A DNA stretch of 57,493 nt, filler included, from Dugesia japonica (lineage: Eukaryota), in assembly GCA_001938525.1 (NCBI GenBank). It is 4 parts of 4 records of this genome, joined end to end, with 100 filler letters (N's around TTAATTAATTAA, not from the genome) between each part and the next. Parts side by side here need not be neighbours in the genome. Positions count along the whole stretch, not along the records: positions 30,234 to 39,246 come from MQRL01623176.1; 3 more parts are not named here. One strand, written 5' to 3'. The notes beneath the pieces were generated by a model. That model had not been told where the DNA came from. It saw nothing but the letters and a program-made list of their open reading frames with translations, and ran no database searches. How positions within the stretch are numbered: the first letter of the stretch is position 1; every line of letters starts with the position of its first letter. The position numbers and the translations under genes were made by a program. Below are positions 969 through 49,034 of the stretch, one piece after another.

Positions 969-971
969 TAT

Positions 972-12796: not shown

Positions 12797-12980
12797 AATT
12801 CATTTAAAATAAAAGCTTCGAAAAAAATTTGTTTTTTTGGTTTTTTCAGATTAATTCTATACTTCGACTTTGTCTTCGTCAGGAATTGGTGACGAATTAT
12901 TGACGAAGACAAAGTCGAAATATAGACTTAATCTCAAAAAAACAAATTTTGATCGAAAGTTTTATTTTAAATGAATTATT
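12797..12980. repeat. Foldback element with two opposed hammerhead cores
   Basis: ~90-bp inverted arms; minus core at 12853-12887 (GAAA>GAAG) and plus core at 12895-12929 (CTGA>TTGA). Confidence 0.75.
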
Positions 12981-18462: not shown

Positions 18463-18798
18463 ATTTCAAATCGAACTTCAAAAAATTTCCTCAATCAAAA
18501 ACCATTCAAAGAGGACAATCTCTGATTCTCACATGTGTTCCTCCTGAAAGTAAACCAAAATCTAACGTAAACATTGTTTATCAAGTTAAAGTTAAAACTA
18601 ATTGATTCATTTTCTAAAATTAGGTTCAATGGATGAAAGATAAAAGGAAAATATTTGAGAACAGTAGAATTAAAATCATTGATGAGCATCAACTATTGGT
18701 TAAGGATACTGTATTGTCAGATGCTGGAAATTATAGTTGTACAGCAAGTAGTCTAGAAGAAATACGTTATTCTCCCATAGCTGTTATAAAAATTCAAG
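18463..18798 (+). CDS. unc5: UNC5 second Ig-domain exons (18463-18566, 18624-18798)
   Basis: FKSNFKKFPQSKTIQRGQSLILTCVPPESKPKSN / VQWMKDK...LSDAGNYSCTASSLEEIRYSPIAVIKIQ, separated by a 57-nt GT-AG intron. Confidence 0.9.
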
Positions 18799-21700
18799 GT
18801 CAGTCTGAAAATTTAATTTCGAAATCTTTAATAAAACTATTAGAAGTAGTTACTGCAAATCCATCTACACAATGGTCAGCTTGGTCTGTTTGTGATAGTA
18901 ATTGTAAAAAATCAAGAACTAGATCTTGTAACAATAAAGATAATTGCAATGAAATAGTTAAAGAAGTGGAATCTTGCACAAAAACTGAATGTGAAGGTAA
19001 TAATTGACAATGTAAAATTGGAGTTTTTTCTAGAGTTCAAATATCAAACTTTTTGTTTTCTATTTTTAAATTGCATAACCAATAAGCGAGGATTTAAAAT
19101 CAGAATAATTCGAGCTCGGTTTATTAAGTATTTTATGGGTGGAATAATTTGAACACTCGTTATTAATACAAATTACAGAATATTTAAAATAATTTTGATA
19201 CTAATATTTTGAAAGATTGTTTTTGATCAATAGTTAACAATTGAAAGAAAAAATAAAACGAAATATTTACATCGGTATTACAAGTAAAAATCATAATAAA
19301 ATCAAGTATAAAAACAAAGAAAAAGAAAAAAATCTGAAGCTTNNNNNNNNNNNNNNNNNNNNNNNNNNNNNNNNNNNNNNNNNNNNNNNNNNNNNNNNNN
19401 NNNNNNNNNNNNNNNNNNNNNNNNNNNNNNNNNNNNNNNNNNNNNNNNNATTTCATATCAATTAATTTAAACAAAATTTAATTATTTCATAAAATTAATA
19501 GCTTCGATCAAAATGTTGTTTATTTTTAATATTTTTCATGATATTTTAGTAGTTAATATTTCAAAATTTTGACTTTTGTCTTCAGAATTTAACGTTTTGA
19601 TTGATTTAATCAATATTAGAAAATTTTACAAAATTGTGCATTTTATTAAATTTTGTTTTACTTTTAAATTAAATTTTAATATATTTTAATTAAATTTATT
19701 ATAATTACTATGAACTACATTAATTTTATGTATATCATGTCTGATCAATATTTCTTCATGTTTCTTTCTGTGAAGTGAAGAATTGTAGCCTTTTCCTAAT
19801 ATTTTCTGTTATATGATTTTTTTCTGGTGAAATCTTATGTTTGTATTAAAAGTATTTGAATCATTTCCATTTCTTTCTGTTGGAGATGTTCTTTAATTCT
19901 TGTTCGGATGGTTTTGCAAAATATAATAAAAAAATCGGAATTCAAACATAATCCAAGAGTTATATTCAAAATACAAGCACATTTTGATAGTCAATTACAG
20001 AAACCAAGATAAAACCTATATCATATGAAATGTATTTGTGATGATATAAATATATGCAATAAGAAAATATCACTTATAAAATAACAAGGATACATATATA
20101 GGAGAAACAAATATTTTCAATGTTTCTTATTTCTTATTTCATTAATTTTATTGTCATATAGTAATTGACTTTAATTGTTTTGACATTTTATGCTCAATTT
20201 TTCACAAGAATAAATATATCTATCAAAAAATAAAGATAAAATTATAATATTAAGTATGTAAAAAGTGTTTCCATTTATTAAGTTGTAATAAAAACAATAA
20301 CGATGATTTTAAATGCCAATCAAATCGTTTTATTATTTAATTGTTTGAATTATGACCATGTGAATTTTATAAATATAAATGTGTTAATATTTGAATATTA
20401 TTTTTTAAATAATTATTCGACATTCAATGATTAAGCTCAAATCAACTTTACTTTATATTGAAAATATTTAGATAATATTCAAACAATATTGAAATATTAA
20501 TCATCAACTTATACATTTTAAAATAATTACAAATATTAAAACAAACATCTTACATTACAGATATAAATAAAAAAAAACACTTTAACAAAAATCTTTATAT
20601 ATTTTCTAAATTTCCTTTATTAACTGAAATATTTTCTCAAGGAAATCTTCAACATTATTGTCATGTTACATCAATTCATTAAAATAATTTTTTTCGAATT
20701 CTTATCATATTACAACGGGCTTTTTGTTGATATCAACATGCTAGATATGATCTTTTGTTGAATGGTTAATAAGGTTAAGTTTATATTTAACTGTCAGGTG
20801 TAAAATATAAACCATAATAATTTTTTTAATGATTTATAATAATAAAAATGTTATTTTTAATAAAAACCCTGAAATAAATAAACAACGAAAACTAATAATC
20901 AATTACCAATTTCAATGATATTTTTTATTTTTACATTAAAACAAAAAACGATTCTAAAGTTACACATGATAAGAAAGTGACCCTAAAGCTACACCCCTAG
21001 ATTCATATTTTTAATATGATTAAGATATTTTCTTAACAATTTTTTTTGTCAATTTTATTTGCATAGAAAAATAAATAAATATAAATATAAATTAAAGAAA
21101 ATGGTAAATTATAAAATCTATTAATATGATTATTTCGTTTGTATAAATTAGAAATAATAATAAACAATTAATTTCAATGGCTCTGATTACCTCATCAAAA
21201 AATAATTAAAGTCAATTCTGTATAAATGTTTCTGGTAGTTTAATATCTAATTTATCAGATATAAAGAGTGAGTATAATTAGTAGTCATATTAATTTATAG
21301 GCTAAGTGTCAATCATTACAGGCTCTTCTCACAACAATGAATAACTATTTCTTTCTTTTTAGATAATAGAGCAGTGGCGCCTTTTGTGAAGAATCCAAAT
21401 AAGAATGGAGGTGAGCATTTTTCGCTTTATTTTTCTGAGCTATATTTAGCAATTTTATACGAATCAATTTGCAGCAGTGACGGATTTTAAAATTTCTATT
21501 TTCATTTTAAACAAATATAGCTATTTTCAAATTTCCTCTCAAAAATTTCTCCTTTATCCATGACAAGCATGATCAAATTATTCAAGTTATTTTATGCTAT
21601 AATTCTATAGAATTTCAACTATATTATAAATGATAATAATAAATGTAATTGTAAGATATTTTAGTGTTTGAACATATTTTTATTCGACTTTATAAAGACA

Positions 21701-24341
21701 AAATAAAATAGTTTTAAAGTTTATTCAATTTTGAAAATATATTTATATAAATATATAATATTTATAATAAAAATAACAGTAATAATAATATTAATAATCC
21801 TAATATTTTTTATATATATAGTCGAAATTCTATTGGACGAGGGTAAAACGAATATCCAATGAAAGATAAAAAGTGACGAATNNNNNNNNNNNNNNNNNNN
21901 NNNNNNNNNNNNNNNNNNNNNNNNNNNNNNNNNNNNNNNNNTTGATATAAAAAGTATATTATTTAAAACAATATGCTTAAGGTTGATGTTTTGATTTCTA
22001 ACACTATAAACAATTTTTTGTATCTTTATTTTTTAAAATATAAGCTTCAATCAAAATTTGTTTTTTTGAGATTAATTCTATATTTCGACTTAGTCTTCGT
22101 CAGGAATTGACTTTTTTTATTTTTATTTTATTTGGGCTATTCATGTAATATTATTTATATGTGCGTGTTTACTTACATACAATTTTGAATTGAATATGAA
22201 ATAAATTAAATCATTTATCCAACAGAATTATTTTACAAAACAAAATTTATCAACAAAAACATAATGTTTCATTTTCAAGNNNNNNNNNNNNNNNNNNNNN
22301 NNNNTTATTATTATTAATAATAATAATTTTAATAATAATATTATTAATAATTATTATTATAAACGTTTTGTTGCAATAAAAATTATATTACAAATAAATG
22401 ATTTATATTTTCCCGTGGTAAAAATTATAATTTAAAAATAAATAATGACAAAACTACACTGAATCTGATTTTGTTAGTTTAAACATTCAACATGTAAATA
22501 TTTTTGCAATGGATTTTCCACTTTCAAAAAATATTATTAATCTAGGTTCCTTTCATTTGTCTACGATTTCATATAGGGTCATTCCTTCACCAAATCGCAA
22601 AGAACGTGATCCTTATATTTGCTCATCCTCCAGTCTAAAGTTTCCAAATTTAAACTTCGCAAACCATCTCCTTGCTTTTCTTTCATCCAAAGCCGTAATT
22701 GTTGCCCGTGGTTTCTGCTGCTGTTTTATTCCTTTTAAATTCGTAGAGCATGCAATTGCACAAATGTCACACTGGTTGTTTGAAGGTTGCCATTTGAATG
22801 GATTTAGATTTTTAATTTAAATTTCGTAGAAAGAATTTTAGTCATCTAATATTCAGTATAATTGCTTAAATCTTTGTTTGAATAATACAGACTGAATAAT
22901 TCCATATTTTTCATTTTGTCTGATGATCACGGCTGATCTGTCAAAATTTATTAAATCGCGTTATTTATATTTTCATAAAAATGTTTTTTAAATAAATTAA
23001 TAACTTAGTACTCAGATAATTTAATTTTGATTTATTAAACAACAACTTATAAAACATTACTTTTCGGAAGACCTACTAAATTTAGTTTAATGTAAAATAG
23101 TTTATTTTTTGAAAAGAAAAAGTAATATTGTATCCAGTATATGTACAATTATTATGACTGGCAAAACAATTAATAGTGTAATTATTAAATAATTATTTCC
23201 ATTTTTATCTAGTATCAACCAGCAGTTTACAAGATGCCAGAGACATTGCAATGTATGTTGGACTATTTGTGGCTGTAACAATTCTAGTAATGGTCATTAC
23301 TGTCATTTTTTGTCTCATTCGTCGGAAAGCATTCTTACCAATACGAAGTCCGATGCGATATCCACTTAATATTAACGGTAAGTGTTTTGTAATGTTAACG
23401 TTTAAAGTTTACAAATTTGATTGGTGACGCCTATAAAATAATTTATGTATCATTGAATTGTATTATAAAATTTTCTAGGAAATGGCGTCACGTTTGATGT
23501 GAAAAACAGTCTAATTAAAAGTATATTTATGTATTGAAATAAGTGAAACTAATCCGTTTATTTTAAGGTTCAAATCCAATTTCAGTCAAAAACCAAAATA
23601 CTATGGACACAACGTTGAATTCATTAATGCAACAAAGATCTTATCTTTCTCAAAGTCCACCTAATCTGCCTCCACCAACTTGTTTGTCAGAAATTAGCAG
23701 TACAAATGCATATTCAACTGGTATTGACTTTTCATACAATAGCACGGGGTCTGGAAAGTTTTCTCAGCCTTTAATTTCGAATTCATCGTCAGCATCTACA
23801 ACAAATAAATCAAAAGCTACTTCATTGTAAGTTATTCCACTATAAAATCATTTCAAACAATATTATTTTCGAGTCCGATTTCCTAATTTAAATAATTTCT
23901 AGACAATATAACATTGATGTGAACACGACTGAATAACAGGAGAAAAATAATATTATTAAAGGCATACATTTCCTTTAACTTGTCAGTAATACCACAGATT
24001 CTAATTCGATAATCATAATTAATGTACCCATTACAATGAAACTAAATCATATTCACTTTGTTACTACATGACAACTGGAAAATTTTAAAAAGAATCTGAA
24101 CAGTTAAAATATTGTGTACTCTGAGTTTGGTTGTTTCATTTTCAATATTATTTATGAATTTTAAATTCTACCGCTTCGTAAATTAACATTAATTATCGAA
24201 TATTAAAAGAAAATGATTAAATACAATATTTTGTTTTAAACAGTAATCATTAATTTTATCGATTATTTTCAATTTAATAATAATAATAAACNNNNNNNNN
24301 NNNNNNNNNNNNNNNNNNNNNNNNNNNNNNNNNNNNNNNNN

Positions 24342-24400
<59 letters not shown>

Positions 24401-27400
24401 GTTTTACAATTGCAAATATTGCGAGAATAATTGTTGGACATAACCATTGATCGTTTTTCATAATTCATTTAAAATAAAAACTTCGATCAAAATTTGTTTA
24501 TTTTTGAGATTAATTCAATATTTCGTTTTTGTCTTCGTCAATTAAAGTCAATTCCTGACGAAAACAAAGTCAAAATATCGAATTAATTTCAAAAAACCAA
24601 AAAAAAATTTTTTGATCGAAGCTTTTATTTTAAATGAATAATAACTATTATTTATTATATTATATTTATTAATATATTTATATTTAATATATTCATTATT
24701 ATTTTATTATAAATAGGTTGAGAAATCGTTCCTCAAACAATCTTTCTAGACATTTAATAAATTATTTGTAATTTGAATTTTTTTATCTACTGATTTTAAT
24801 TATACTTAGTATTGTTACTATGTAGTTAAATATAATAATTTCTCATTAAATATCCACTATACATTTCAGCTATTTGATATATAAAAATATGGTATTTAAG
24901 AATATCATTGGTGAGAAATCCGATCCCCATTATGTGCTCATTCAAACTGAATAAAGTTATGATCAATCAACAGATAAAAAGTTTTTATAAGAATATTACG
25001 AAATAGTGGAGTGTAAATTATCATGAAATATAAAATTTTAATTAAATATTTCTTAAAATAATTAGTATTAATCAATTATTTATTAATATTAATTTAATAC
25101 AATATTTAGATCTAACACTGATCATAAACCTGATCCATTGACTGTTTCGGGATCACCATTAAATTCAAGACCACCATCTGCTTTGTATCATGAATTATCT
25201 TTAGATCATGAATCATTATGTAACCCACCTCCTTTTGTATCAGAAAATATTGACATAAATACTTTAGCCTGGGGTATAATTTCCTCCTCAGGAGGAAGAC
25301 TATGCCTTCCTCAATCAGGTAATTCAATAAATCTCTTTCATTTATTTAAATTAAACCATACCTTTAGGCATTACACTCACAATTGCACCAGGTAGTTTCA
25401 TTAATTCTTCTTCCAGTGAAATGTATCTGGCTGTGTCGAGAAACGATCCAAATCCACCAATATTGTCTGGTATGAATATTTTAATGGATTAAAGAAAATT
25501 ATTTTTCACTTGTCTAATTTTTGTTAACAATTATTTAAGTCAAAATGACTAGAACAATACAAAATTATAAATTCGATTGTCTTTCCTTCTAGATAACCTT
25601 TAAGTATATGTGTTTTAATTTTAATAAAAAAATAATTTTTTTGATAAAATCAACAAATGTTCAACATGTCGAATAAATTTCAATCAAATTCAATGTTTGA
25701 TTTTAATTTAATGAAATTAATGATTTATTAATTTTAAATTATGCAGTGGAATTCCATGTTTCAATATTATTTTTTAAAGAAATTATTAACTCTGAAATAA
25801 AAATTCAAAAATATTATAAATTCAATTCGTAATTACAAATTTCCACATTAATTTTATTTTTTTAAAAATTTTAATTTTCCACAATATTTAAACAAAAAAA
25901 TAAGACATTAAATTAAAATGACAAAATATACAAAAATCACACATTTCATGACATAAATTTATAAATAAATTAAAGTATTCAATTTTAAATTAATTTTTTA
26001 ATCATTTTATTAATATTCTATTATAATATATTTTGAAAACCTTTTAATTATTCTAATGATTATAAAATTAATAAATTTCATTAATTACATTAAATTAATG
26101 CAAATTAAATTTATTAAAAAAACCTAGTAATATATAAATAATTTGAAAACAAATATATTGCTTATTGTTTGTATTTATATAATANTATAAATTGTATATG
26201 CATTTTGTTAGACAATGAAACTTTGCTCACTCCAATTGTTTTATTTGGACCAAAATGTGTTTCAATATTAAAACCATGTGTGATTTCGGTACCACATTCT
26301 GCAGATTTGAGACAAGGAAATTGGGTTATTCGTTTACTTTCATGTGTTCTTCCAGATTCAAATGAAGACTCAAAAGAACCAATCTGCCAACCTATTTGGA
26401 AGGTAAATCGAATGGACTGTTAATCATTATTTTTGCTTTAATTTAGAATATAGCTACTATTGGATGTGAAACGGATCAAACGCCAATTTATACACATTTA
26501 GATCCATTTGCTGCATTTATAATGCTGGATAAACCACAAAAAATATGCCTGGTCGGGCAATCGTATCCTGGTGGAAAAGCTACAAAACGATTACGATTGG
26601 CCGCCTTCGGCAGACCATTATCAACCAACTCCTACTTGCCAAATTACAATATTAGAATCTATGTTTTTTCAGATACTAAAGAAGCATTTGAAAGTGTGTC
26701 ATCAATTGAAATGAAATTGGGCAGCACGCTTTTGGATATTACTTATCAGATTATTTTCAGTGATAGTATGGGTAATTTGTTCTTCTGTATTGANNNNNNN
26801 NNNNNNNNNNNNNNNNNNNNNNNNNNNNNNNNNNNNNNNNNNNNNNNNNNNNNNNNNNNNNNNNNNNNNNNNNNNNNNNNNNNNNTAATATCAATAAAAT
26901 AAAAAAATGATAATTACATTTTTAAAGATCATGTTAAAGGTCTTTTAATTTTATTTCTACTATAATGAATTTTATCAATTATAATTAGCGGACTCAGTAA
27001 AAAATTTATTACTCTCTTTTGATTATATGTGTAAAGAGTAGATTTTATTAACTTTTTTATTAAATTCTTTTTTTGTCGTTTAAATAGTTGTTCAAACGTT
27101 AAGCAGATTTTATATTTTTGGTATTGAATTTTTTAATAGGTATTGTAATTATTAAAAATTTTTGATTAAATTTTCTATTAAATTGTATTATAATTGTTGT
27201 AAACTTTAATAGTCTTTGATTGTATTTGTAGTTAGACAAGTTTGAGACAATCATCGTTGATTTAAAAGACTAGATCAGCTTGNNNNNNNNNNNNNNNTGG
27301 TAGGCCGCGCGCAGACTAATGGTGTATCGCAAAAAATGTTAACATTTACAAAAATAAAAAAGCAAATTTTAATATTATCAATAAAATAAAAGGATTGTTC

Positions 27401-28263
27401 GTTCTAAATACAATTTTATATAATTTATTTACATCAAACTTTAAAAAAACATTACATTCTACATTTTTATTCTTATTGTCTTCTATACCGGTGGGTCGCA
27501 AAATTTATTGGTTTAAATAGTGAGTCTCGTAAAACTCTGGGAACCGCAGAACTAGATCATTTCATTTAAAATTCATTATATGACAACGACAACAAATTAT
27601 AAATTTGTTTTTTAAACAAATTAAACAAACCAAATATTTCGCATTTCAAAATGAGTTTTTTATAATTTTATTTTAATAATAATTCAATTTGTTTAATTTT
27701 TAAATTATTTCAAAAATTTTAAATAGGTTTTGCAAAAATTTCAGATTATTTCTTAATATATTTTCATATTATATTATTTTTAAATTATTTATTTATTTTC
27801 GAATTCGTTGTATTTATTAAATCATCAGATTTTATTTAATTATTTACGTTAAAAACTTCGTTTGAAATGTCAAAATATTTAGTTTGTTTCAATCCATTCT
27901 CACTGTATTGATTTTTACATAATATTTGTGTAACAAATAAATTATATTCCATGGACAGAAAAAGTTTTTTTTATCAATAAAATTTGTTTGATGAATTCTG
28001 AGATTCTTGATTTGTAAATAAAAAATTTCCTAAAATTACTGTATTGTTCTTTTTTAAGGGTAGGAAGTGGTGTGATCGTTCAAAATTGAAGCATTTGAAA
28101 AAAACGTAAAAAACTTAAAAATTCTTTCTCTGTAAAACAAAATTAGTTTTAACTTAATAAATTGCAAAAAAACATGCCAATAAATATTATTATTNNNNNN
28201 NNNNNNNNNNNNNNNNNNNNNNNNNNNNNNNNNNNNNNNNNNNNNNNNNNNNNNNNNNNNNNN

Positions 28264-28295
<32 letters not shown>

Positions 28296-28577
28296 TTTTG
28301 TTTAGGAAATTCCATTTCAAGACATTTGGAGTGGAAGTCAATCAGAAACTTTACATTGTGCCTTCACCTTTGATAATATTGATCCATCACAACAGTCATT
28401 AACATGTCGAATCACCGCATATCAGAGTGGATTCTATAGTCACAAACAAGTTATTACTATCAAACAGGATAAATCAGATCGTAGCAGTTCAAAACGAGAT
28501 CTTATTCAACACGAGAAAGTTTTACTGTATTCAGATAGCAATAATACTTATCTGGATCCATTAATGACAGTTTTTAG
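18463..28577 (+). CDS. unc5: UNC5-family netrin receptor, partial multi-exon gene (Ig2-TSP1-TM-ZU5-UPA)
   Basis: GT-AG bounded, phase-consistent exons: 18463-18566, 18624-18798, 18844-18996, (21363-21410), 23213-23377, 23479-23520, 23568-23826, 25110-25318, 25368-25469, 26212-26402, 26447-~26793 (runs into N gap), 28306-28577. Motifs: LTCVPPESKP/VQWMKD/DAGNYSCTA (Ig), WSAWSVCDSNCKKSRTRSC (TSP1), DIAMYVGLF (TM), SSGGRLCLPQSGITLTIAPG and TLLTPIVLFGP (ZU5), KRLRLAAF and EIPFQDIWSG..LHCAFTF (UPA). Confidence 0.93.
18844..18996 (+). CDS. unc5: UNC5 thrombospondin type-1 exon
   Basis: TQWSAWSVCDSNCKKSRTRSCNNKDNCNEIVKEVESCTKTECE; AG at 18842-43, GT at 18997. Confidence 0.9.
19740..19920 (-). mobile_element. 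Penelope GIY-YIG fragment
   Basis: CKTIRTRIKEHLQQKE...ILGKGYNSSLHRKKHEEILI; similar to 30500-30660. Confidence 0.65.
21363..21410 (+). CDS. unc5: Candidate 48-nt symmetric cassette exon of UNC5
   Basis: Strong pyrimidine tract plus AG, donor GAG|GTGAG, phase 1-1, stop-free (DNRAVAPFVKNPNKNG), locally GC-richer. Confidence 0.6.
22074..22108 (-). ncRNA. Minimal hammerhead ribozyme, intact core, antisense in UNC5 intron
   Basis: rc AATTC-CTGACGA-A-GAC taa GTC-GAA-ATAT-A-GAATT; 5-bp stem I, 3-bp stem II, palindromic stem III. Confidence 0.75.
22500..22810 (-). mobile_element. Mariner N-terminal HTH fragment
   Basis: HLCNCMLYEFKRNKTAAE...ARRWFAKFKFGNFRLEDE. Confidence 0.8.
23213..23826 (+). CDS. 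unc5: UNC5 transmembrane and juxtamembrane exons (23213-23377, 23479-23520, 23568-23826)
   Basis: DIAMYVGLFVAVTILVMVITVIFCLIRRK TM helix with basic stop-transfer, then a Ser/Pro-rich linker; all phases are compatible. Confidence 0.88.
24401..24640. repeat. Foldback element with two opposed degenerate hammerhead cores, next to (TAA)n
   Basis: Same family as 12760-12980; arms attcatttaaaataaaa.cttcgatcaaaa / ttttgatcgaagcttttattttaaatgaat. Confidence 0.75.
25110..26793 (+). CDS. unc5: UNC5 ZU5 and UPA exons (25110-25318, 25368-25469, 26212-26402, 26447-gap)
   Basis: WGIISSSGGRLCLPQSGITLTIAPG; ETLLTPIVLFGP..ILKPCVISVPHSA; LVGQS..ATKRLRLAAF..YNIRIYVFSDT. Confidence 0.92.
27276..27549. mobile_element. 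hAT (Charlie-like) MITE
   Basis: CAG start and GGGAACCGCAG end, flanked by near-identical 8-bp TSDs GACTAGAT / AACTAGAT. Confidence 0.65.
28306..28577 (+). CDS. unc5: UNC5 UPA C-terminal exon (absent from ORF track)
   Basis: EIPFQDIWSGSQSETLHCAFTFDNIDPSQQSLTCRITAYQ...MTVF(R); AG at 28304-05, GT at 28578. Confidence 0.9.
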
Positions 28578-30233
28578 GTTGGAATTCATTATTAATTTAC
28601 TAATAGAATAAATCTGATAATCAATATCCATTGATAATGTATTATATCGATGCGTAAAAAATTTTTGATTAATATGAAATTAAATCAAAGATTTATCCAA
28701 GATTTTGAAAATTCTATGAAATTTAATATTTATATTTAACCTATATACAATTCTTTAATTTTGATATTGCATTAATGTAATTTACGATTGGTTTTTTAGC
28801 CAGTTTGATTAGGTTATAATTGAAATTTGCTACAGTTTTCTTACCTTACTTTTAATCTTCTTACTGCCTTAGAGTCGGTTTATCTTTTATTTCACTTTAT
28901 TTCTTTAGATTACTAGATATTGACTTTACTTATTTTTTTCATGTGATTACTTTTTTATTGTTGAATTATTCTATTAAGAATCTCATTTAAGCAAATGGTT
29001 ATTATACCATTCTAATTCTAATTTAACAAAACTTGTGAAATAAAACAAAGATTTGATGTGTTAATTTTGGAAATTATTTATTAAAAGTATTACAGTTCAT
29101 TAAAATAACAATAATAATGGAAAAAAATAATAATTATTGTTATTGCATCATTTTTTTAATTGTATCATTACAATTATATCAATAAATCTGAGAATTGAAT
29201 TAAATATATTAAAGAATACAAAATATAGAACAAAACATATGGAAGACAAGATATAGAATAAAAGATGTAGAATACCATACATGGCAATGTTTCCTAAATT
29301 TTTTTTACAAATTCCTCCGACAGATCAGTATGATTAATTTGTTCCCCTTTTTTAAAAATTTTAAAACCTAGTTATACATATATATATATATTTTCTTACT
29401 GATTGAAACACAATTAATTCCCATTAATTCCCATTCAGCTAATATTAGAAATTATAAATTAATTTGTTTATTGTTGATGTGGATAATTTTTTTAAAAAAT
29501 TTATTGATTTTTTTGATTGCGAGACGGTTATAAAGCGAATAATGAATTCATTTAATATTTTATCAGGCTAGAATCGAAAATTATCCGTATAGTATCAGCT
29601 TTTATCAAAGTCAAATGTAACAACAAATAAATACAAATAAGGTTCAGATTTAATAACAATATGAAAAATCGATACAAAAATAATAATCAAATCGAAGTAT
29701 ACAAAGAAATTTGATTCAACAGGATTGATAATCAATTGATTAATAAATTATGTATTGAAATTTCAGTTTTCGGTGCCGACAATATATTTTTTGACACGTT
29801 GAATAATCAGTTAAAAATAATAATAGTAATAATAATAATTATAAGATAGTTTTTTAAAAAACAGATTAAAATTTTTTTTTTTGAAAACGGAATTTATTAA
29901 AATCAAAAGTATTTAAAATTGNATCAAGAAAATAATTTATAAAATAAATTTATACAATTAAAGGATTTTTAAAATATAAAATTAAATGAATAAAATAAAT
30001 CTATTTTAGTGTATTTTTTAAAATCAAAATATAATTTAAATATAAAATATAAAATTAAGTATTTAGTATTTTCCGTTTTTAAATATGAATTTTTAAATTT
30101 GTTTGTTTTAACAAATAATGATTTCATAGTTTTNNNNNNNNNNNNNNNNNNNNNNNNNNNNNNNNNNNNNNNNNNNNTTAATTAATTAANNNNNNNNNNN
30201 NNNNNNNNNNNNNNNNNNNNNNNNNNNNNNNNN

Positions 30234-30730: not shown

Positions 30731-32135
30731 ATCTAATTATATAAATTAAAAAGTTTATGATAATAACTTTTGTGTGGTACAAGTATCCAGCACCGATCTG
30801 TGTGGAATAGCTACAAAATGAAGTTAAGCAAATCATAACATGCACAGTTAAATAATATCATTATAATTGATTTTGTTAAAGTTTTTCTTTAAACAATTTA
30901 AGCGAACTCAATTTGATATCTACCTTTAATAGAACCTCTGTGTGAAGAGTAAATAATTCTGAAAATTAATCAAATTTGTAATCATCATATACAGTCAAAC
31001 CTGTCTATAAGAAACACTAGAATTGACAAAATGGATTTTTAATCAAGTTCTAACAAACATTTTGAAGTTTGTTTTAAATAAAAAAAGAATCATATAACAA
31101 CTTTAATTCTGGATATTAAGATTGATTTTCTGCTATACGAAAATTGGATTTCTAACAAAATTAAACATAATCATTCAACAGTTTTTATATGACTAAAATT
31201 CTATTAAAATTTCATCAATCAAGGCCAAATCGGGAAGTGAGAATCTCTGAAAACAATAAAATACGAAGCTCTCGTTGCGGAATCCCAGCTCTTGGTTCGT
31301 GCACAAAATGTGAAGACGATAAATATTTAAATAAAAATGAACTTTAACGTATTTATAAATCAATTTATCTAGAAATGTCAAAGAAAATCTGGCTTAAGGA
31401 TGCTATGGAATCTCCGGACGGATGAGGTTTCTCTGCTCCTCCTCAGAATTTTAAGCCAATATTGTATGACTCTTGGAGAGAGATTAAAGAGGCTTGGTGA
31501 CAGTATGAAGATTGAATTCGGATAAAAAAAATCTGGAGATTTGTGAACAACAAACGGAGTTAATGTGAAAAGTGGAACAGCTAGAAAATCAACTGATCGT
31601 GTAAGAACAGGATTGGGAGAAACAGAATTAGGCTCTCGCATACTTATTGTGTAAAGAGACTAACTATTTTAGGAGACCTCCGACAATAACAGATTATGGA
31701 AACATATTGAAATTGAACTTATTGGCACATAACCAAACAGTCAAAAGATTGGATGCAGGATTCGAGCGGATAATACCAACGCTCATCGAAAATCTTGTGG
31801 AAAAGGATGAAGTTATTGAAGGAGATAGTGAAGAAACTTTAGTGTAAATGTAATGCTTTTTTATATTTTATTTTTATTATTTTTTTTATAAAAAAGTACA
31901 TGTACATGTATATGTGTGTGTATAAATACACACAGACACGTATAATTATAAAAGTAATATAAAAAATATTATTATGCAAACAATAGTCAATAATAATTAT
32001 TGACACTAATTAAAAAAATTAAATTTAAAATACAAACTTGGCAACAGCCATATGAAATAAAGGTAGATAAATTAAATTCATTTAATATAAAAGCTTAGAT
32101 CAAAATTTAGGTTTTAATTATTGATATTGGATAAC

Positions 32136-32170
32136 AATTCGATTTTTCGACCTTGTCTTCGTCAGAAATT
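32136..32170 (-). ncRNA. Minimal hammerhead ribozyme
   Basis: rc AATTT-CTGACGA-A-GAC aag GTC-GAA-AAAT-C-GAATT. Confidence 0.65.
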
Positions 32171-33129
32171 GACTTTTAAAAGTAAATCAAAAAAAAATCA
32201 AAATNGTTCTAAGTAGGCATAATAAATTAAATAAGGCTACCCTCAATACGTTACAGTATATATCGAACAATCCACGGCAATTAAATTTGTTGTGAATAAA
32301 GGCTATAGCAATAAATCTAGTTTTCGTTCAACATATTTGTTTCCCTGATAATGTCACATTAGATTAACTAGAATAAGTTATCTCAAACTAATTCAATATT
32401 CACTACACGAAAGTGTTATATGAATTAAATTTTTGTTTCACTGTAATAACCTTCCTTTGTTTGCAATCATAAGCCTGGCAGAAACGAGTTTCTAGCAAAA
32501 CGAAAACTATACTGTGCAGAACTTAAGAAGTCCCAGATAGAAATAAAGGATCTCAAGGAAGAAAACCATACCAACAAACGGAAGATGACAGTCCTGAGCA
32601 AAAAATTAAGTGTAAGCTGCAGACGTGAGAAATCTTTATTAGAGAGGTCGCTGTCCTGGTCAATATAAAGCCTTGTAGAAGGACTACGATAGCAAAATAG
32701 TTATTGAACATGACTGCGTTATAACCGAGGAAATTATTTTGGATCTCCTTGAATCCTGTGCTCAAATCGACGTGTTCATTACTTTAAAGTCTGTAGTTTT
32801 AAGTCAAAACATAAAATCAACACAAATAGCGAGTCGAACAAACGAAAATAAGGCCAGCAAAATCTGAGAATAATAAACATCAATAGACTTTCTAAAGACG
32901 GGATACAGCATAGTCCCACATTAACTAGGGAGTAGATGATCAACATGCGAGGTGTTGATAAATATCTGCCGACTTCAGGGAATNTAACATTAGAGAAGAA
33001 GTTAAATGTCCAACAACCAAAATATAAACGAGAACGACGATAAATAAATAACATTAGAAACCTCAAAGCCCAACAAAATTATTACAAGAACTAATTTTAA
33101 TATAATAATATATAATATATACCAAATTA

Positions 33130-33531
33130 TTTATATTAAAAATTTCAACCAGATATGCATCATCAATAATGTTTTCCAAATTTATTTTGATCATTTTGAC
33201 TTCTAAACTCTTCAGCAGGTATCGCTTGTTACGAATCTGTTTTATCACCTCTTATGAACCTGTATATCTTTCTTTGTCTTTTTATCTGTTTTTTAATTTG
33301 ATTAGCATCTCGTTTCCAACTTATAAATTTTTCTTTTTTGGTGTCAACTCTTTAGATTCTTTCTTCTTTTCTCCATTGAACCGTCTTTCTCCTAGTATCT
33401 TTTTACCAAATATCATTTATGCTGAACTCATCCCCAAAGTCTTTTAACTTGTTGCATTCAGAGTAAATTCCATATCTGGTACAAACTCTTTCTAATTTTG
33501 ATCCTTTTCATGTTGCATTGATGCAATCTAT
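33130..33531 (-). mobile_element. Gypsy integrase C-terminal remnant
   Basis: FVPDMEFTLNATS*KTLGMSSA*MIFGKKI...YEEVIKQIRNKRYLL. Confidence 0.7.
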
Positions 33532-33782
33532 TGTTGGGGTTCCACCGAGTTGGATGGTAAGAAATTTGTGACTGGGGGAAAACAGCCCTCAGGGGAACCC
33601 GTTCAAGAACTTTACCTACCGCCCCTAGGGTAGGTATTCAGTTCATGGCGGTTGACCTCTCTCTTAATGGGAGGTGCACACCCATAAACCTTTGTATTCG
33701 GCTTCATTATTTTCCCTAATATTTTCAGCAAAAGAAAGAAAATACATTATTAATTATATACATTTTATTTCATAAAAATTAT

Positions 33783-34165
33783 TTATATCAAATCCAGCGC
33801 CCCTGGATCTAACCAATGGGTTGAATTGGTTACCGAAAAGTTAAAGGCGACGGCATCGTCATTATCATCCCATTGAATCCAGGTTGGGTTGCCTATTTGG
33901 CGAGAAAGATCGGCGATGTATTGTTTAAGAAATTCTATCTTTCGTTGTAAAAGTTGCTTCGTCTCTGCTTTTAATGCCTTGGTTTGAGCCGCCAAATCGC
34001 TCTGTTTCTTTACAAATAGATTTAATTGTTTTATCATTTTATCTCTCTGGGCCAATTGTTTAAGGATGACTCGATCAGTTTTCTTTTTAAGGTGTCTTTC
34101 TATCAAGAGCCGTTTCATAATCTGATGACACCGTCGTAAGCTACTAGGGAAGGCTATACGTGGCA
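33783..34165 (-). CDS. Open coiled-coil ORF or terminal exon, unknown function
   Basis: ~127 stop-free codons after a TTTAG acceptor; AATAAA 14 nt after the stop; heptad-like pattern. Confidence 0.5.
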
Positions 34166-34293
34166 CTAAATAAAAGAATTATAATGATATTCGAAGTATG
34201 ATAAGAATAATAATTATATGTGCTACTGAAAACAATTCATGATAAGATAACTAACAAAAGAAAATAATTTTATTAAAGTATAGCGACACACAA

Positions 34294-34651
34294 CTAGGGA
34301 CGAGAGACCTGAACTCCTCTGTCTACCATAAGAGGAACTAGGGCCATCATCTTCCTTAACTTCATGATGTCGTCAACCAATTTATTTTTTCGATCATGGT
34401 TGGACCGGATAACATCAGTTAGGGATTCCAGCTGAGCTTTCCATATTCTCTCCTGCTGATGCGAGGCCTCGGCTTCTGTATTGAAAGCCAGACACTTTTT
34501 CTTGTAACGTCGAACTTTGGCCTCTGCATTGACAACGTCGGCTTCCCAACGACGTTTGGCTAGCCTATACAGATTCCACGTAAGATCAAGGTCTTCGCTA
34601 GTCTCTCGTAATTTTTTTTGCAGAGCCTGCGATTTATTCAGAGAGGAGTGC
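34294..34651 (-). CDS. Open coiled-coil ORF or terminal exon missed by the ORF track
   Basis: TTTCAG acceptor, then 118 stop-free codons HSSLNKSQALQKKLRETSEDLDLTWNLYRLAKRRWEADVVNAEAKVRRYKKKC...VSRP*; AATAAA at 34269-74. Confidence 0.55.
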
Positions 34652-35281
34652 CTGAAATAATATTTTATTAATTATGAAGATTACAAAGTTCAGTAACATA
34701 TCCTTAATAGAATACCAATTTATCTTAACAACATGAGCAAATATAATACAAATCAGCAATAAATGAGACACCTATTTATTTACATTTTCAAGCAAAAGAC
34801 AGGATTTATTGGGGATTAATATTATTGTCAACAATGGGAGCTGTATTTTCAGCATCCTCCCCTCCGAAAGGTTCCCTAATTCCCCAGAGCATATTGGCGA
34901 TGAAAGCCTGAACTACTGGTGGGGAGCTGGAGGTTGATAACGGAATGGAGTAGCGTGGTTACGCTCAGGCCCATTTCATTTGTGGAAGTTCAGTCGCTCC
35001 CCGAAGCTCTAGATACGATAAACAGCCGATTCAACGGGAGGTAGATTGGATCTATCGACTAAAATCACCGCATCTCGATTGTGAGGATTGTGATGTCGTC
35101 GGAAGATTATTCGACGGGTACGTCTATCCACTACTCTTCCCCATATAGACTCCATTTCTTAGAAAACAAGGGAAAATAATAAAATTCAAATAACACAACA
35201 TTAAGATATCGGAAATCATTTATATAATTAATTATGACAAAACACCAAGTTTTCCACAGGTACTATTTTATCCTAGAGCTG

Positions 35282-35482
35282 TCAGCAAAGCAAAAATCTC
35301 TCTTCATCTAAGTCGACCCCATCTTTCAAAGGAAACATCTCTGCAAGACAACGAAGGTCTATTTCATCTGGGTGCTCAATTTCCCCTTTGGTCAGTAAGT
35401 GAGCTATCAATTGTTTTGACCGGCTAATCTGGCGTTGCTTTTTTATCCAACACAGGGTACGATACAATTCTGTTGGCATAAG
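35282..35482 (-). CDS. Small ORF preceded by a splice acceptor, unknown function
   Basis: TTCTTTAG|CTT ATG; 65 aa, open. Confidence 0.4.
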   Translation of the reverse strand, partial: LMPTELYRTLCWIKKQRQISRSKQLIAHLLTKGEIEHPDEIDLRCLAEMFPLKDGVDLDEERFLLC

Positions 35483-36199
35483 CTAAAGAATGAAACTATT
35501 AACCGCAGTCTTTAACTTTGGGCTTAGATTCCCAGAACAAATCGTTGTCGCTGACTAATATTATTAATATAAGGATTTTACCATGGAAAAGGTGATAATA
35601 AAGGGGATGTCGTAAATTAGGATCATAATAACTTTGTTAGAGGAATAGGGATATTCCAACTACTATTAATAATAATAATAAGTATCACCACAATAATATG
35701 CAGCAGGGACAAAATTATTTTAGTAGTAATATTAATAATAAAGATACTCATTACCATGCACGGAAACATGATATCATTGGTGTTGGACCTGGTAGTAACA
35801 ACAATCCTAATCCGAAATAATAATTAGTCAAATATTTTCACATTCAGTTCTCAAATTCTTGATAATTTTAATGGGTTGATATTGATTCTGATAAAACGAT
35901 ACTATTAATACTAATGACAAGAATCCATGTAGTAATGGTTATCATAACCATTATAATATTATTACCCACTAATAATAATAGCAATAGTGCTAGTCCTAAT
36001 AGTAAAATTGCTATTACTAATAATAATCATAATGATCACAGCAAAATAAAAATATTTTTCTTTGCTAATACTTTCGAATTTCTGAGCGGTGCAATTGCTT
36101 AGTGATTTTGTTCTTTTTAAATGATTATACCGATCTTATTGGTGTTGGAGGGTGTGATTACCAATTTACTCTCGTGTAGGTGTGTAAAGTCAGAGAATC

Positions 36200-38030
36200 A
36201 GACTTAAGCAGAAGGCATCAAGCAACTAATATGATTCAATTGGCAGATTCTATGCACACATACTAATAGTATGACTCTCAATTTGTCAAGCCTGCTAATC
36301 CTACGGGAATTCGCAATTTAGGCAATGAATACTGATTTTTTTGCTTTTTATATTGTACAAAACTCATTAGTTATTTATACTCCATGATGTTTTTGGTCTC
36401 AAAGATTACTGCCAATACTGAGCAAGTAGATTTTAGCCGATCAGGGAGTGTTAAAGGAATTATTTTATCATCGAAATCACTAGGATTATTTACATTTCGA
36501 ATCAACTGAAGTGAGTGGTAATTTATTAGCTTTTCTCAATAAATAGTTGGAATTTTATTTTCCTTTTTGATTATCTTATTATGAAATTTTTGTCTGGTTG
36601 TTTGTTATAAAATTATTGAAGGGATTTAAACCTTATTCCAATTCCATATTCCATAAAAAGGAAAACATTGTTAAGCATAACGTAATTTAGGTTTACTATA
36701 TTTACAAATTAACGTCTTATTGACTTTAAATAATGGTAAAGCGGATCTATAAAAAAATTTATTTAATAACGAATGGTTTCAAAGAATTTTTCATTTAATT
36801 TTAATCAAATTCACAGTGATCAATAATTTATCTGTTATGATTTAATATATTTAGCAAAAAAAAATAACAAATTAAGATTTTCTTTAACATGGATTAATTT
36901 ATTAGGATAAATAATATTCAAAGTTTCTTAATAATACAACTTTTAACATAATCAAAATAATACTTTGCTTTTTAATATTAAACTGTAGAATTTCTGCAAA
37001 CGGTTCTCGCAAAGGATCTGGCTATCGTTAGGCGTAATACTTGGTTAAAGAATGGATTTCTTCAGCGGCTATTTTCTTTCTTGGAAACAAAATTAATCGG
37101 GACCAAATTAATTATAATTTACTCGATGGTGCTCCGGTAGGATTGAATTCCTTTGGGTAGATGTTAATTATTCGAGAGTTGATCAGTGAGTTTTTTCCGA
37201 TAAATGTTCTGATATAAGAGCGCTTATCGTATTGACACACTAAAGTACAATTAAAAATTTTTGTAGTTGTTTTTGTTTCTAAATTCAGGGGTCCTTTTAT
37301 AGGATTTTCTTTACACCCCAACTTCTTCCAGATTTGTTGGTTATTTTTAGATTGCATTTTCTATTTTTTTATTGGTTCCAGTGCCAATTCTCTAAAATTT
37401 TCTTCGAGTTTTGGTGCCGCAATTGGCAGTTATTTTTAGCGTGACACATGACAATTGTGTCTTTGTTTTAATTATAATTTCAGGTTCGTCATTGGCTCAA
37501 GCTTCAAACCCTTGCTGAAGTTCTCCAAATGATGTTAGAGATTTGTTATACCCAAATTCCGATGCGTTAGCCGAAACTCTGTTAGGATTTTCTTGAGCCC
37601 TCCTTGTATGTTTACCCGGAGTGAAGTTATCGGCATAAATTGAATTTTGCTCCAAATTTAATTAATTTTTTCGTTTAAATTAATTGATATTTTTGTTGTA
37701 ATTATTTCTTCTTTTGTTAAACATTTTCTTTATTAATTTTATTAGTTCTTTCGATTATTATAATTAATCCCATTTAATTTAATTATCTGAGTCTTTCCAT
37801 TTTCGTTTATTAATATGATCCTGATTCTTCTTGCTTGATTTTCCATACTTGCTCTTCTTAATATTTTCTTTTCCGCAATATTATTTCTAGTTTGATAGTG
37901 AATGATTTATGACCCCACTTTGACTTTATTTTTCATTCCACTGGGTGTTTCATCCCAAACAAATCGCTCTCCATCTTGTTTAAATTCCGTCCCGGAATTT
38001 GCCATAACTCATCCCCGTTGCAGAAAATCC
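36200..38030 (-). mobile_element. Decayed non-LTR retrotransposon fragments (Lys-rich N-terminus, degenerate zinc finger, RT thumb)
   Basis: SALPLFK...KPKLRY and KLRIPVGLAGL resemble post-RT motifs; CTLVC..RTFIG..SL is a degenerate C2H2. Confidence 0.35.
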
Positions 38031-38637
38031 TTCAACTCTAATAAAATTAACAGACAAGGCAAAACTTAAGGTCATTACAGGTTATCCCATAATGCATACA
38101 TAAAAATTGTTCTACAATATACATTTAAAACAGTATACATTGATACATTCAAAGTTCGTTAATTCCGTTAATTCATTGAATCATTTAGTTATTATTTACA
38201 GTTTATCTACATCTAGCCTAGATCGTTCTAGTCGACTTCATCTACTAGGTTGTTCTGGTTGTTCGTTTGTATATCAGAGCCATATTTTCGTAGTATTTTG
38301 GTTACGATTGATTGGGATAGGTTTCTTTTAAATTGATTGTGGTCGAGTATTGAGGTTTTACTGGGTATCCAACTGGATATATCAGAACCGAGAAGAATGC
38401 TTTGAAGTTTTTGAATTACCAATGGTACCGGTTTTCTAGGTTGGGTTGGAATTGTGGAGGATGCTGGAGTTATTTAGGAANNNNNNNNNNNNNNNNNNNN
38501 NNNNNNNNNNNNNNNNNNNNNNNNNNNNNNNNNNNNNNNNNNNNNNNNNNNNNNNNNNNNNNNNNNNNNNNNNNNNNNNNNNNNNNNNNNNNNNNNNNNN
38601 NNNNNNNNNNNNNNNNNNNNNNNNNNNNNNNNNNNNN

Positions 38638-39246: not shown

Positions 39247-39349
39247 NNNNNNNNNNNNNNNNNNNNNNNNNNNNNNNNNNNNNNNNNNNNTTAATTAATT
39301 AANNNNNNNNNNNNNNNNNNNNNNNNNNNNNNNNNNNNNNNNNNNNTTG

Positions 39350-46519: not shown

Positions 46520-49034
46520 TATTTATTACACCTTTTTTAGAATTTCATTAATAAATATTATGGTAATTAAACAGAATGCTAACATGGCAACAACCCAAGA
46601 AAATATGCTCAATTCGATTGGAAGAATCTTTAATTGGGATGTCCAGATTTTAAGAGCTAACAATGACTCAAGGTCCTATTCAAAGAACGTTTTTTAAGGC
46701 ATTTCTTTCTATAGATGTTGTGAAATGATATGAATCCATAGATGATTTAATTGAGAATTATGCCAAAAGATGCAGAAAAGCTTTTAAAGAATCTGCATTT
46801 ATCGGTAAAGATATTAGCTGTAATGAAATATTGCAAAGGATATGAATCCATAAAAATTAGTAAATAGCATAATCAGTATAAAAAAAGTCTCGTTAGTTTT
46901 CTCTGGCAAAATGTTGTTAAAGATATGGATGTTAAAAAAGAAATAAAAATTCTATGATCAAGAACAAATGAAGAAATAAAAGACTTTTACAAAAATGGTC
47001 GTTATCAAGAAAAAGCTTAGTCTAGAAGTCAATGTTGCAGCAGTTAAAATCGAAAAGTAGAATTACGCAACTACTGCTAAATTTAATGATTTGCAGCTAA
47101 ATCGTCCAGTCGCTTTTAAATGGAATAATTAATTGGAAAACAACCGAAGCCGATAATTTAAGTCTAGAAGATATGTTAATTCAAATGCACCCATTAATCA
47201 TTTTGACGGAAGAGGATTTAAGAGAACGCAAAATAATTTTTTACAAAGATCCAGACAATGTTAGGCATGCAACAAAAAGGACATGTTGAAGCTAGTTGCC
47301 CAAATGTAAAATATTTCAAGTGTAACAGACCGTGATATTTCAAACATAAATGCTTTTAGATTTTGGATATAAAAAGAGATTATCTTTACTTCAATTTTGG
47401 TGAATATGAAGAAAACTTAGATTATTTGATGACAGAACTATGACATATCAATTCCCAAAACAAAAGCCCGTCCTTAAGAAAAAGTTATCGGGGCAATTCT
47501 CTAAAAAATGTAAGTTTTGATTTGAACAATAATGGTAGTATTGATACTGATTGTAAATATGTGTATGATATTGGATTTCGTAAAAGTTATTTTTGTGAGG
47601 ATGTATTTTTGTATGATGATGTTATGCTTGATATAATAATTGATAATAAAAATAACTTTGTAAATAATAATAATAATTATAGTACTAATAATAGTTATGA
47701 CAATAATAATAATTTATCTATTATTAATAATTTTTTTAAAGAAATTTATGAAAACTCTAATACCGTAGATAGTCGTCCCATGATAAATTCAAAAATCAAT
47801 AATATTGTTACATTATGTTTACTTGATACTGGAGCTAAAATTAATGATATTAAATATGAATTATTAGAAAGAATATGAAATGTTTCAATAATTGATTCTG
47901 ATATAAATGTCAAATGTGCAAATAATGGTTCTTTAAAATTTGTAGAAAAAGTATATTTAGATATAAAGTTTAATAAAAAAATAGAGAATATCTGTTTTTA
48001 TGTTGCTAAAGAAATCTCACCAACTGTTATTTGTGGAATAAATTTATTGAATAAATTTAATATGACATTCACCATTAATGAAGAATCTGTTAATGTAATA
48101 AAACATTAGAAATTGAAAATATTAAAGATGAAAGGATATTGATGATTTTAAAATAAATGAGATATTTGAAAAACTAATATTATAAAACTAAAACATGAAG
48201 TAATAGCAAATAGAAACCAATTGCTATTTATTCTAGGCATCAGCCTTATCATTTAATAGATAGGGTTGAGCAAAATATTAAAGTAATGGAAATAAATGGA
48301 ATTACAATTAAATGTGACTCCCGTTGGAATGTTTCTTTACTTTGCGTAAAAAAACGAGACAATGAGGAAATAAAACTTTGATTAGATTATAGATTGTTAA
48401 ATTAAGTTACAGAAAGACCAATTTTTTCTATTACAAACACTGAGGAAATGATGGATATTTTAAATGGAGCCAAATATTTTACTAGGATAGATTTGGAAAT
48501 TTCTTATTATAAAGTAGAATTAACAGATGATTCAAAATGTAAAATTGCTTTTTCCACTAAAGTTGTACAATATATTTTTAATCGAATGCCTTTTAGAATT
48601 GCAGCTGCTCATGCTACTTTCAAAAATAGATATATAAGGTTTTAGGTTCCTTATATTGGAAAAAAGCAAGTGTTTACTTAAATGATATTTTATTTTTTTC
48701 CGAAACTATAAAATTACACCATAAAAAATTGATAATGTTTCGAAACGTAAAAATGAAGTGGGTTTAGAAATAAGTCCATCTAAATTTCATGATAAACGAG
48801 ATAAAATATCTGGGTCATATTCTTAGTTCAAAAGGAATTCATACTGATAATGCAAAGCTGAAGCAATTTTTAATTTTGAAACCCCAAATGTGTTAAAAAG
48901 TTGAGAAGTTTTTAGGCATTGAAAATTATTATAGGAAATTTTTTAAAGGATTATACAAACTATTGCAAATGTTTAGAAAATCTATGTGGTAGTAACCAGA
49001 AATAAATATACTGGAAAGATGAGTACAAAATTTC

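What the first reader, a model, noticed from the sequence alone, without database searches (positions are those of the whole stretch)
33532..35500. Tandem array of 'acceptor - ORF - polyA signal' modules: operon-like or leader-spliced cassette
Seen on the minus strand: about five GC-richer blocks separated by short AT-rich spacers. Each starts right after a pyrimidine tract plus AG (exon starts 35482, 35157, 34651, 34165, ~33716) and three end just before AATAAA (34805-10, 34269-74, 33764-69). Three are fully open (65, 118, ~127 codons; two coiled-coil-like), while nearly all TE ORFs here are decayed, and the 118-codon one has no early ATG. The block starts TGTTGGGG and abuts a Gypsy integrase remnant. 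Known: flatworms use spliced-leader trans-splicing, and adenoviruses splice one leader to many terminal exons. Inference: a mobile-element accessory cassette expressed as a polycistron resolved by trans-splicing, or as alternative last exons from a shared leader.
Basis: partly seen in the sequence, partly recalled or inferred. Interest (0 to 1): 0.75.

Follow-up and report, generated by a model that had tools for sequence, protein, structure and literature searches.

The report
Transposon tail with spliced-looking mini-genes
A repeated mobile element in this AT-rich animal genome ends in a row of four small unknown genes, each behind a splice-acceptor-like site and three followed by a polyA signal, which would likely be expressed one at a time by splicing to a shared leader, although no RNA read tested that.

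Summary
The architecture is real. Four ORF modules and a GC-rich terminal unit lie on the minus strand (33532-35482). ORFs M1, M3 and M4 are longer than shuffles give (P 0.014, 0.004, <0.001). AATAAA follows 3 of 4 stops (chance about 0.005). A DNA run shows a repeat family: ORF bins reach summed depth 1,800-6,500, spacer bins 390-660, locus-specific contigs 17-28, and the terminal ~175 bp 127,000. So other copies keep the ORFs and change the spacers. This copy looks decayed: M2 is broken and 5 of 6 near-fixed ORF differences change the residue. 'Module 5' is better read as a TG...CA terminal repeat behind a purine run than as a gene. No relative or fold was found for the proteins. Three RNA runs (5.2 Gb read) barely cover the cassette, so neither spliced-leader (SL) nor shared-leader splicing was tested. 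Best reading (0.4): the 3' accessory region of an LTR-type retroelement, expressed as alternative last exons of a shared 5' leader with splice-coupled internal polyA. An SL-resolved transposon operon (0.25) fits the spacing equally well and would be the real novelty.

The parts
35282..35482 (-). M1: acceptor-like AG, ATG at +3, 65-aa ORF, no AATAAA after the stop
   Evidence: no relative found; low-confidence helical model, pLDDT 52; depth 390-812 in the DNA run
35158..35281 (-). AT-rich spacer ending in the strongest pyrimidine tract plus AG
   Evidence: DNA joints 35190-35304 and 35240-35314 show other copies differ here
34806..35157 (-). M2: acceptor-like AG, ATG at +2; broken in this copy (stops at 35011, 34978, 34915 and a frame change); the last open stretch ends in a TAA inside AATAAA
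   Evidence: about a third of laid depth differs in length at 34920
34805..34810 (-). AATAAA overlapping the final M2 stop, followed by a T/GT-rich stretch
34294..34651 (-). M3: acceptor-like AG, 118 open codons, no early ATG, two long helices, net charge +9
   Evidence: no relative found; 16% of laid depth differs in length at 34651
34269..34274 (-). AATAAA about 20 nt after the M3 stop
33783..34165 (-). M4: acceptor-like AG, 126 open codons (111 aa from the ATG at +47), coiled-coil-like N-terminal part, net charge +10
   Evidence: no relative found; in other copies similarity breaks at the stop, 33783/33789
33764..33769 (-). AATAAA about 14 nt after the M4 stop
   Evidence: PPT role inferred
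33532..33706 (-). GC-rich (0.49) ~175-bp terminal unit, TG...CCCCAACA, 20-70 times deeper than the ORF bins; likely an LTR or other terminal repeat
   Evidence: bin depth 126,863; 40,015 at 33702, 4,834 at 33724; no Rfam hit; folding z -0.66 and -1.43
33150..33531 (-). decayed Gypsy-like integrase C-terminus that the element abuts; a separate, high-copy family
   Evidence: family name rests on a recalled motif, no Pfam hit
35566..37221 (.). low-copy DNA upstream of the cassette; marks where this copy of the family stops (the rest of the element is missing here)
   Evidence: depth 22-178

Best explanation
This is a truncated copy of the end of a repeated mobile element, likely the 3' accessory region and terminal repeat of an LTR-type retroelement, whose four small ORFs would each be expressed as an alternative last exon spliced to a shared 5' leader and ended at its own polyA signal. 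Shown: the modules, the repeat family, ORFs kept better than spacers, a far deeper TG...CA terminal unit, and breaks in this copy. Inferred: in intact copies one promoter in the 5' LTR makes a leader with a splice donor. The choice of acceptor picks M1, M2, M3 or M4, and splicing to an acceptor switches on the next AATAAA, while unspliced genomic RNA reads through to the 3' LTR, as shown for plant Copia elements. The basic coiled-coil proteins M3 and M4 would be oligomeric accessory factors; their targets are unknown. The family is nearly silent in ordinary polyA RNA, likely through host silencing.
For:: ORF bins 1,777-6,515 against spacer-dominated bins 390-659. DNA joints lose similarity at the M4 stop and regain it at 33695-33716. 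The terminal unit is 20-70 times deeper than the ORFs, which is the solo-LTR pattern; purine run, then TG...CA on the minus strand; on the plus strand no TGG primer-site start follows the unit, which argues for minus as the sense strand. ORFs open from the acceptors, stop and meet AATAAA, and the scan found only 3 weak donor-like sites, as expected for terminal exons. M2 and M4 (and M5) are in phase 1, and M3 lacks its own start, so it would need an upstream coding leader or is broken at its start. Precedents: splice-coupled internal polyA with U1-protected full-length RNA (PMC5580714, passages); cis donors outcompete SL for an acceptor (PMC4558846, passages); accessory ORFs in planarian Burro and fish foamy-like elements (PMC6431247, passages).
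Against: No spliced read was seen: 168 reads were laid out of 35.7 million, 166 of them only partly, and none of the 15 joints shown is in RNA (11 more joints not shown). No leader, gag-pol, second LTR, primer site or target-site duplication lies in this copy. The terminal unit has no AATAAA, is short and GC-rich, and its ends are inverted only in TG/CA. Phases are 0, 1, 2, 1, 1, so not uniform. Three internal sense polyA signals are a heavy load for a genomic RNA. Summed contig depth is not a copy number, and AT-rich spacers may drop out of an 85% filter without selection.
Confidence: 0.4

Rival explanations
1. A transposon-borne operon: one transcript is cut at each AATAAA and the downstream ORF is capped by host spliced-leader trans-splicing at the next AG.
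For: Spacers of 67-160 nt and AATAAA-to-AG distances of 159, 109 and 54 nt fit flatworm operons (candidates <=300 bp; S. mansoni median 99 bp; PMC12582326 passages). Few donor-like sites lie inside. ATG sits 3 and 2 nt behind the M1 and M2 acceptors.
Against: The SL's terminal AUG is in frame only with M1; at M2, M3 and M4 it opens frames of 8, 5 and 3 codons, and leaves M3 without a start unless a weak AG near 34628 is used. M1 lacks AATAAA. No SL-like loose end appears at an acceptor among the 17 rows shown (862 not shown; RNA coverage near zero). The host taxon is unconfirmed.
Confidence: 0.25
2. Compact independent mini-genes of a DNA element or integrated DNA virus: each ORF has its own short AT-rich promoter and polyA, and the AGs are incidental or are mutated start contexts.
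For: A stop overlapping AATAAA (M2) and short AT-rich gaps are typical of compact viral genomes (recalled). Acceptor-like sites are common, 2 per kb. A near-ATG acceptor in 2 of 4 true modules has P 0.11. Copies vary at the M3 start. A deep terminal unit could be a terminal inverted repeat with short derivatives.
Against: All 5 of 5 block starts carry an acceptor-like AG. No viral relative by sequence or fold. No polymerase, capsid or transposase gene was found beside it.
Confidence: 0.15
3. An antisense cassette of a retroelement whose genomic RNA is the plus strand, which would let acceptors and polyA signals survive reverse transcription (HBZ-like; recalled analogy).
For: It removes the internal-polyA problem. 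The plus strand starts TGTTGGGG, an LTR-like start.
Against: If the deep 175-bp unit is a whole LTR, no primer-site start follows it on the plus strand, while a purine run precedes it on the minus strand. It survives only if the LTR is longer than 2 kb.
Confidence: 0.1
4. Real accessory ORFs, but the acceptor and polyA pattern is a by-product of AT-rich spacers, or the blocks are non-coding remnants.
For: The tests are post hoc on 4-5 modules; the window has 4 AATAAA per kb; no protein relative was found.
Against: ORF length P down to <0.001, AATAAA placement P 0.005; conservation among copies ends at the M4 stop codon.
Confidence: 0.1

Closest known systems
3' accessory regions of complex retroviruses and foamy-like fish ERVs (recalled; ERV accessory ORFs in PMC6431247 passages)
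   Same: several small ORFs just before the terminal repeat, each with its own acceptor
   Different: there the RNAs end together in the 3' LTR (recalled); here three ORFs have their own AATAAA, and no sequence relationship was found
Arabidopsis Ty1/Copia (EVD) spliced, prematurely polyadenylated gag RNA (PMC5580714, passages)
   Same: splicing coupled to an internal polyA site inside an LTR element
   Different: one site and one known protein in a plant; here three sites and orphan ORFs; untested
Planarian Burro/GYPSM1 giant Gypsy elements (PMC6431247, passages)
   Same: LTR elements with accessory ORFs in AT-rich animal genomes
   Different: no Burro domain was found here, and no acceptor-ORF-polyA array appears in the passages I read
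Flatworm SL-resolved operons (PMC12582326, passages)
   Same: spacing of about 100 nt and few internal donors
   Different: those are host housekeeping genes ('transpos' occurs 0 times in that paper's main text); no SL read here
Rotifer Terminons (PMC6431247 section 8)
   Same: retroelement with coiled-coil accessory ORFs and 5' truncation
   Different: no hammerhead core and no telomeric repeat at this end
Adenovirus major late unit; Drosophila mod(mdg4) and lola (recalled)
   Same: shared leader joined to alternative last exons, each with its own polyA
   Different: not transposons; analogy only

Membership tests
LTR retrotransposon (Gypsy or BEL type) | terminal repeat bounded by TG...CA | tested here: met
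   33706-33532 on the minus strand; its inner edge matches the depth step between 33702 and 33724
LTR retrotransposon (Gypsy or BEL type) | polypurine tract before the 3' LTR | tested here: inconclusive
   11-nt purine-rich run with one T
LTR retrotransposon (Gypsy or BEL type) | paired LTRs, primer-binding site, target-site duplication | not testable with these tools
   copy is truncated; no second copy in the window; no genome held
LTR retrotransposon (Gypsy or BEL type) | linked gag-pol | tested here: inconclusive
   upstream DNA is low-copy with no significant Pfam hit; linkage in other copies unknown
LTR retrotransposon (Gypsy or BEL type) | polyA signal inside the LTR | tested here: inconclusive
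   no AATAAA inside the 175-bp unit; the nearest is at 33769, so the LTR may be longer or use a variant signal
Burro/GYPSM1 | giant polyprotein with MATH, BIR, BCL2, ankyrin, env | tested here: inconclusive
   none in the 29 stretches scanned, but the element body is absent from this copy
Terminon / Penelope-like element | 3' hammerhead ribozyme | tested here: not met
   0 Rfam matches at E<=10; no CTGANGA core on the minus strand
Terminon / Penelope-like element | telomeric repeat at the 3' end | tested here: not met
   sequence at 33532
SL-resolved operon | same-strand ORFs <=300 bp apart, polyA site then acceptor | tested here: met
SL-resolved operon | SL joined at the acceptors | tested here: inconclusive
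   RNA depth near zero on the cassette
SL-resolved operon | host has SL RNA | not testable with these tools
   organism coded; no genome
Polinton / integrated DNA virus | PolB, ATPase, capsid, inverted termini | tested here: inconclusive
   none seen among the window's long ORFs or scanned stretches; only one end is present

The most novel reading that the evidence does not exclude
A retroelement family has built its own operon: four orphan accessory genes on one transcript, cut at internal polyA sites and capped by the host's spliced leader, so that a transposon borrows trans-splicing to express a gene cluster.
Probability: 0.25. Interest if true: 0.8.

Novelty: new variant of a known kind. 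Interest (0 to 1): 0.48.

Why it matters
Mobile elements rarely carry several accessory genes, and internal polyA signals should cut a retroelement's own genome. An array of acceptor-ORF-polyA units kept across what look like tens to hundreds of copies points to an undescribed expression strategy, either adenovirus-like alternative last exons or an SL-resolved operon. Both can be decided from existing long-read genomes and transposon-derepressed RNA data. The four proteins have no known relatives and may be host-interaction factors. My paper searches (open-licence PMC and bioRxiv only, judged from listings except the papers named) showed no description of such an array. Repbase and the original Burro paper (not held) could not be checked. 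Without RNA evidence it remains an interesting structure, not a shown mechanism.

Tried and rejected
No genome held. Protein searches: Pfam on 20 ORFs and 9 read-through stretches gave nothing significant for the cassette. Word searches for M3 and M1 found no candidate (near lengths only). phmmer with M4 against 1.84 billion proteins gave 2 hits, both repeat proteins; I aligned and rejected P0001 (24-39 aa patches on DUF7507 repeats) and set aside P0002 (E 4e-4, repeat protein) without aligning it. Atlas: M4 best 0.80, M1 none. Foldseek of M3 against viral models: 0 at E<=0.001. The M1 model was too poor to search; M4 and M2 were not folded. No related loci in metagenome or viral contigs. No Rfam, tRNA or significant RNA fold. 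No RNA holder listed in the run index. The 34 X11 reads with a loose end at 35159 match only about 26 nt of the AT-rich spacer and are loose on the exon side, the opposite of a spliced read; I take them as an unrelated transcript. Long-range DNA joints (33191-37722 and similar) have 21-26-nt sides in single contigs and were rejected as chance. Earlier findings: 3 look-ups, nothing. Terminon reading rejected (no hammerhead). Reading the terminal unit as an SL RNA gene (ATG then GTAAG at 33554-33561, plus strand) was considered; it has no Rfam support and such a 6-mer is expected by chance. Paper supplements were not read; those of the planarian genome papers may hold a repeat library with this family.

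Full report
Setting. The window is 26% GC with assembly gaps. It carries exons of an UNC-5-like gene on the plus strand: Pfam Ig and UPA hits at 18624-28608, and 86-96% identity over four exons to P0003, which has ZU5 and UPA domains. The cassette lies about 5 kb past the last exon I located; I did not find the death-domain exon, so it may be in an intron or downstream. No genome is held and the organism is coded.

Observation. On the minus strand, five blocks of GC 0.40-0.49 alternate with spacers of 124, 160, 128 and 67 nt at GC 0.13-0.27. Each block starts behind an AG with a T-rich run (5 of 5 by a loose filter), similar to the host gene's acceptors. M1, M3 and M4 are open for 66, 118 and 126 codons from the acceptor (P 0.014, 0.004, <0.001 in 1000 shuffles each). 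M2 (0.76) and M5 (0.86) are not above chance. AATAAA lies within 32 nt of 3 of 4 stops, against 11% of 9,394 AT-rich test windows (P about 0.005). Acceptor-like sites alone are common (109 on the strand, 2 per kb). An acceptor within 10 nt of ATG occurs at 196 of 1,293 AT-context ATGs, so 3 of 5 gives 0.027 and 2 of 4 gives 0.11. All these tests are post hoc. Frames relative to the acceptor are phase 0, 1, 2, 1, 1, and the scan found 3 weak donor-like sites.

Other copies. Of 24 listed runs, 9 hold part of the stretch, in 4 studies. I laid one DNA run and three RNA runs on 32990-38480; the DNA run may be the assembly's source. It laid 7,419 contigs, of which 5,569 are under 95% alike. Contigs that match this locus have depth 17-28. 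ORF-dominated bins of M2-M4 have 1,777-6,515, spacer-dominated bins 390-659, the M1 5' bin 812, and 35566-37221 only 22-178. The tool warns that summed depth is no copy number, so I use ratios only. They suggest tens to hundreds of copies, with this one cut off near 35560. Five DNA joints (6 contigs) were relevant at the 3' end: four lose similarity at 33783/33789, the M4 stop, and regain it at 33695-33716; a fifth lies in the integrase and is unrelated. Two more skip most of the M1-M2 spacer. So relatives keep the coding blocks and swap the spacers, which is what selection on the ORFs would leave, though faster indel decay of AT-rich DNA could add to it. The bin 33542-33725 has depth 126,863, with a step from 40,015 at 33702 to 4,834 at 33724. 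That edge coincides with a TG at 33706 behind a purine-rich run, and the unit ends CCCCAACA. I read it as a terminal repeat with many solo copies rather than a fifth gene. Depth at 33544-33546 is only about 2,700, which may come from indels near the end or may mean the deep part is internal.

This copy. M2's ATG frame stops at 35011, 34978 and 34915, and the stretch that ends in AATAAA is in another frame. About a third of laid depth differs in length at 34920, so M2 looks like one ORF broken here. 16% differs in length at the M3 acceptor, so M3's phase here may not be the family's. Of the 6 near-fixed differences shown inside M2-M4, 5 are nonsynonymous (only 40 of 640 rows were shown). That fits neutral decay after insertion. 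The open ORFs then reflect a younger insertion than the integrase remnant, not host use.

RNA. From 35.7 million reads (5.2 Gb; three studies; 6-25% of each run), 168 were laid and 166 of them only partly. Depth on cassette bins was 0-1.9, apart from one bin at 5.4 caused by a 26-nt spacer match from an unrelated transcript. No RNA joint appears among 15 rows shown (11 not shown), and no leader-like loose end at an acceptor among 17 rows shown (862 not shown). The neighbouring integrase bin reached 23 in one run, so the lay could detect transposon RNA. The family is close to silent in these samples and the splicing question is untested. Planarian LTR elements are PIWI-silenced and tissue-specific when released (PMC8532177, passages), so silence would be expected if the host is a planarian.

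Proteins. No relative was found by Pfam, word search, phmmer, Atlas or Foldseek. M3 is predicted as two helices of 57 and 47 residues (single sequence, pLDDT 75). M3 and M4 show heptad periodicity and net charge +9 and +10. Their role as oligomeric accessory factors is inference.

Mechanism. Acceptor, ORF, stop and polyA with no donor is the shape of a terminal exon. Such units need a 5' partner. (a) A shared cis leader from the missing 5' part of the element explains M3's lack of a start and the phase-1 trend. Read-through of internal polyA sites by the unspliced genome has a precedent in Copia elements (PMC5580714, passages), and a cis donor would outcompete SL (PMC4558846, passages). (b) SL trans-splicing fits the spacing (PMC12582326, passages), and cleavage at each site would free the next acceptor from any donor. 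But the SL's AUG would be in frame only with M1. (c) Separate mini-promoters, (d) an antisense cassette and (e) chance remain. My weights are 0.40, 0.25, 0.15, 0.10, 0.10.

Comparison. It works like the 3' accessory regions of complex retroviruses or the adenovirus late unit (both recalled). It is not shown to be a member of any named family. LTR membership is partly met, Terminon features are not met (PMC6431247, section 8 and passages), and Burro or Polinton cannot be judged from one end. I also read passages of PMC11952523 (accessory small ORFs upstream of gag in MDG1 elements) and PMC13524379 (flatworm env elements are gag-env-pol); neither passage set describes such an array. No supplements were read.

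Verdict. A real, conserved, multi-copy transposon accessory cassette of unusual build, with orphan proteins and an untested expression mechanism: new variant of a known kind, interest 0.48.

Noticed in passing
window 18624-28608 (+), also 23603-25323: Exons of an UNC-5-like netrin receptor (Ig, TSP1, ZU5, UPA); death-domain exon not located.
   Followed up: partly
window 37222-38480: A second high-depth repeat block (bins up to 51,908) with decayed minus-strand ORFs and no Pfam hit, separated from the cassette by low-copy DNA; probably another retroelement.
   Followed up: partly
window 35500-36700 (-): Decayed ORF-like stretch with hydrophobic runs upstream of M1; could be an old membrane-protein remnant or just the reverse of AAT-rich DNA. 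No significant Pfam hit; low copy.
   Followed up: partly
window 33554-33561 (+) and 33614-33635: Inside the terminal unit: an ATG followed by GTAAG (donor-like) on the plus strand, and a hairpin with a 7-bp perfect stem; neither is above chance by folding score.
   Followed up: partly
window 12737-12888, 22027-22109, 24402-24639, 32076-32171: Dispersed short repeat family with inverted arrangement (D10/D14/D19, I24), MITE-like.
   Followed up: no
window 760-1053 (-): Fragment that reads like a decayed HSP90 (recalled motif), probably a pseudogene.
   Followed up: no
window 8538-8822, 9687-10103, 56079-56788 (+): Remnants that read like a GIY-YIG/Penelope ORF, a piggyBac transposase end and a pogo/Tigger transposase (names recalled, not searched).
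   Followed up: no
window ~5514 (+), 47444-49000 (+), 53150-53308 (-): Further Gypsy-like remnants (integrase core, protease-RT, integrase C-terminus); the last is 38% identical to the remnant beside the cassette.
   Followed up: partly
window 30178-30189, 39291-39302: The same short TTAA-repeat string sits between pairs of 44-N gaps; likely an assembly linker artefact.
   Followed up: no
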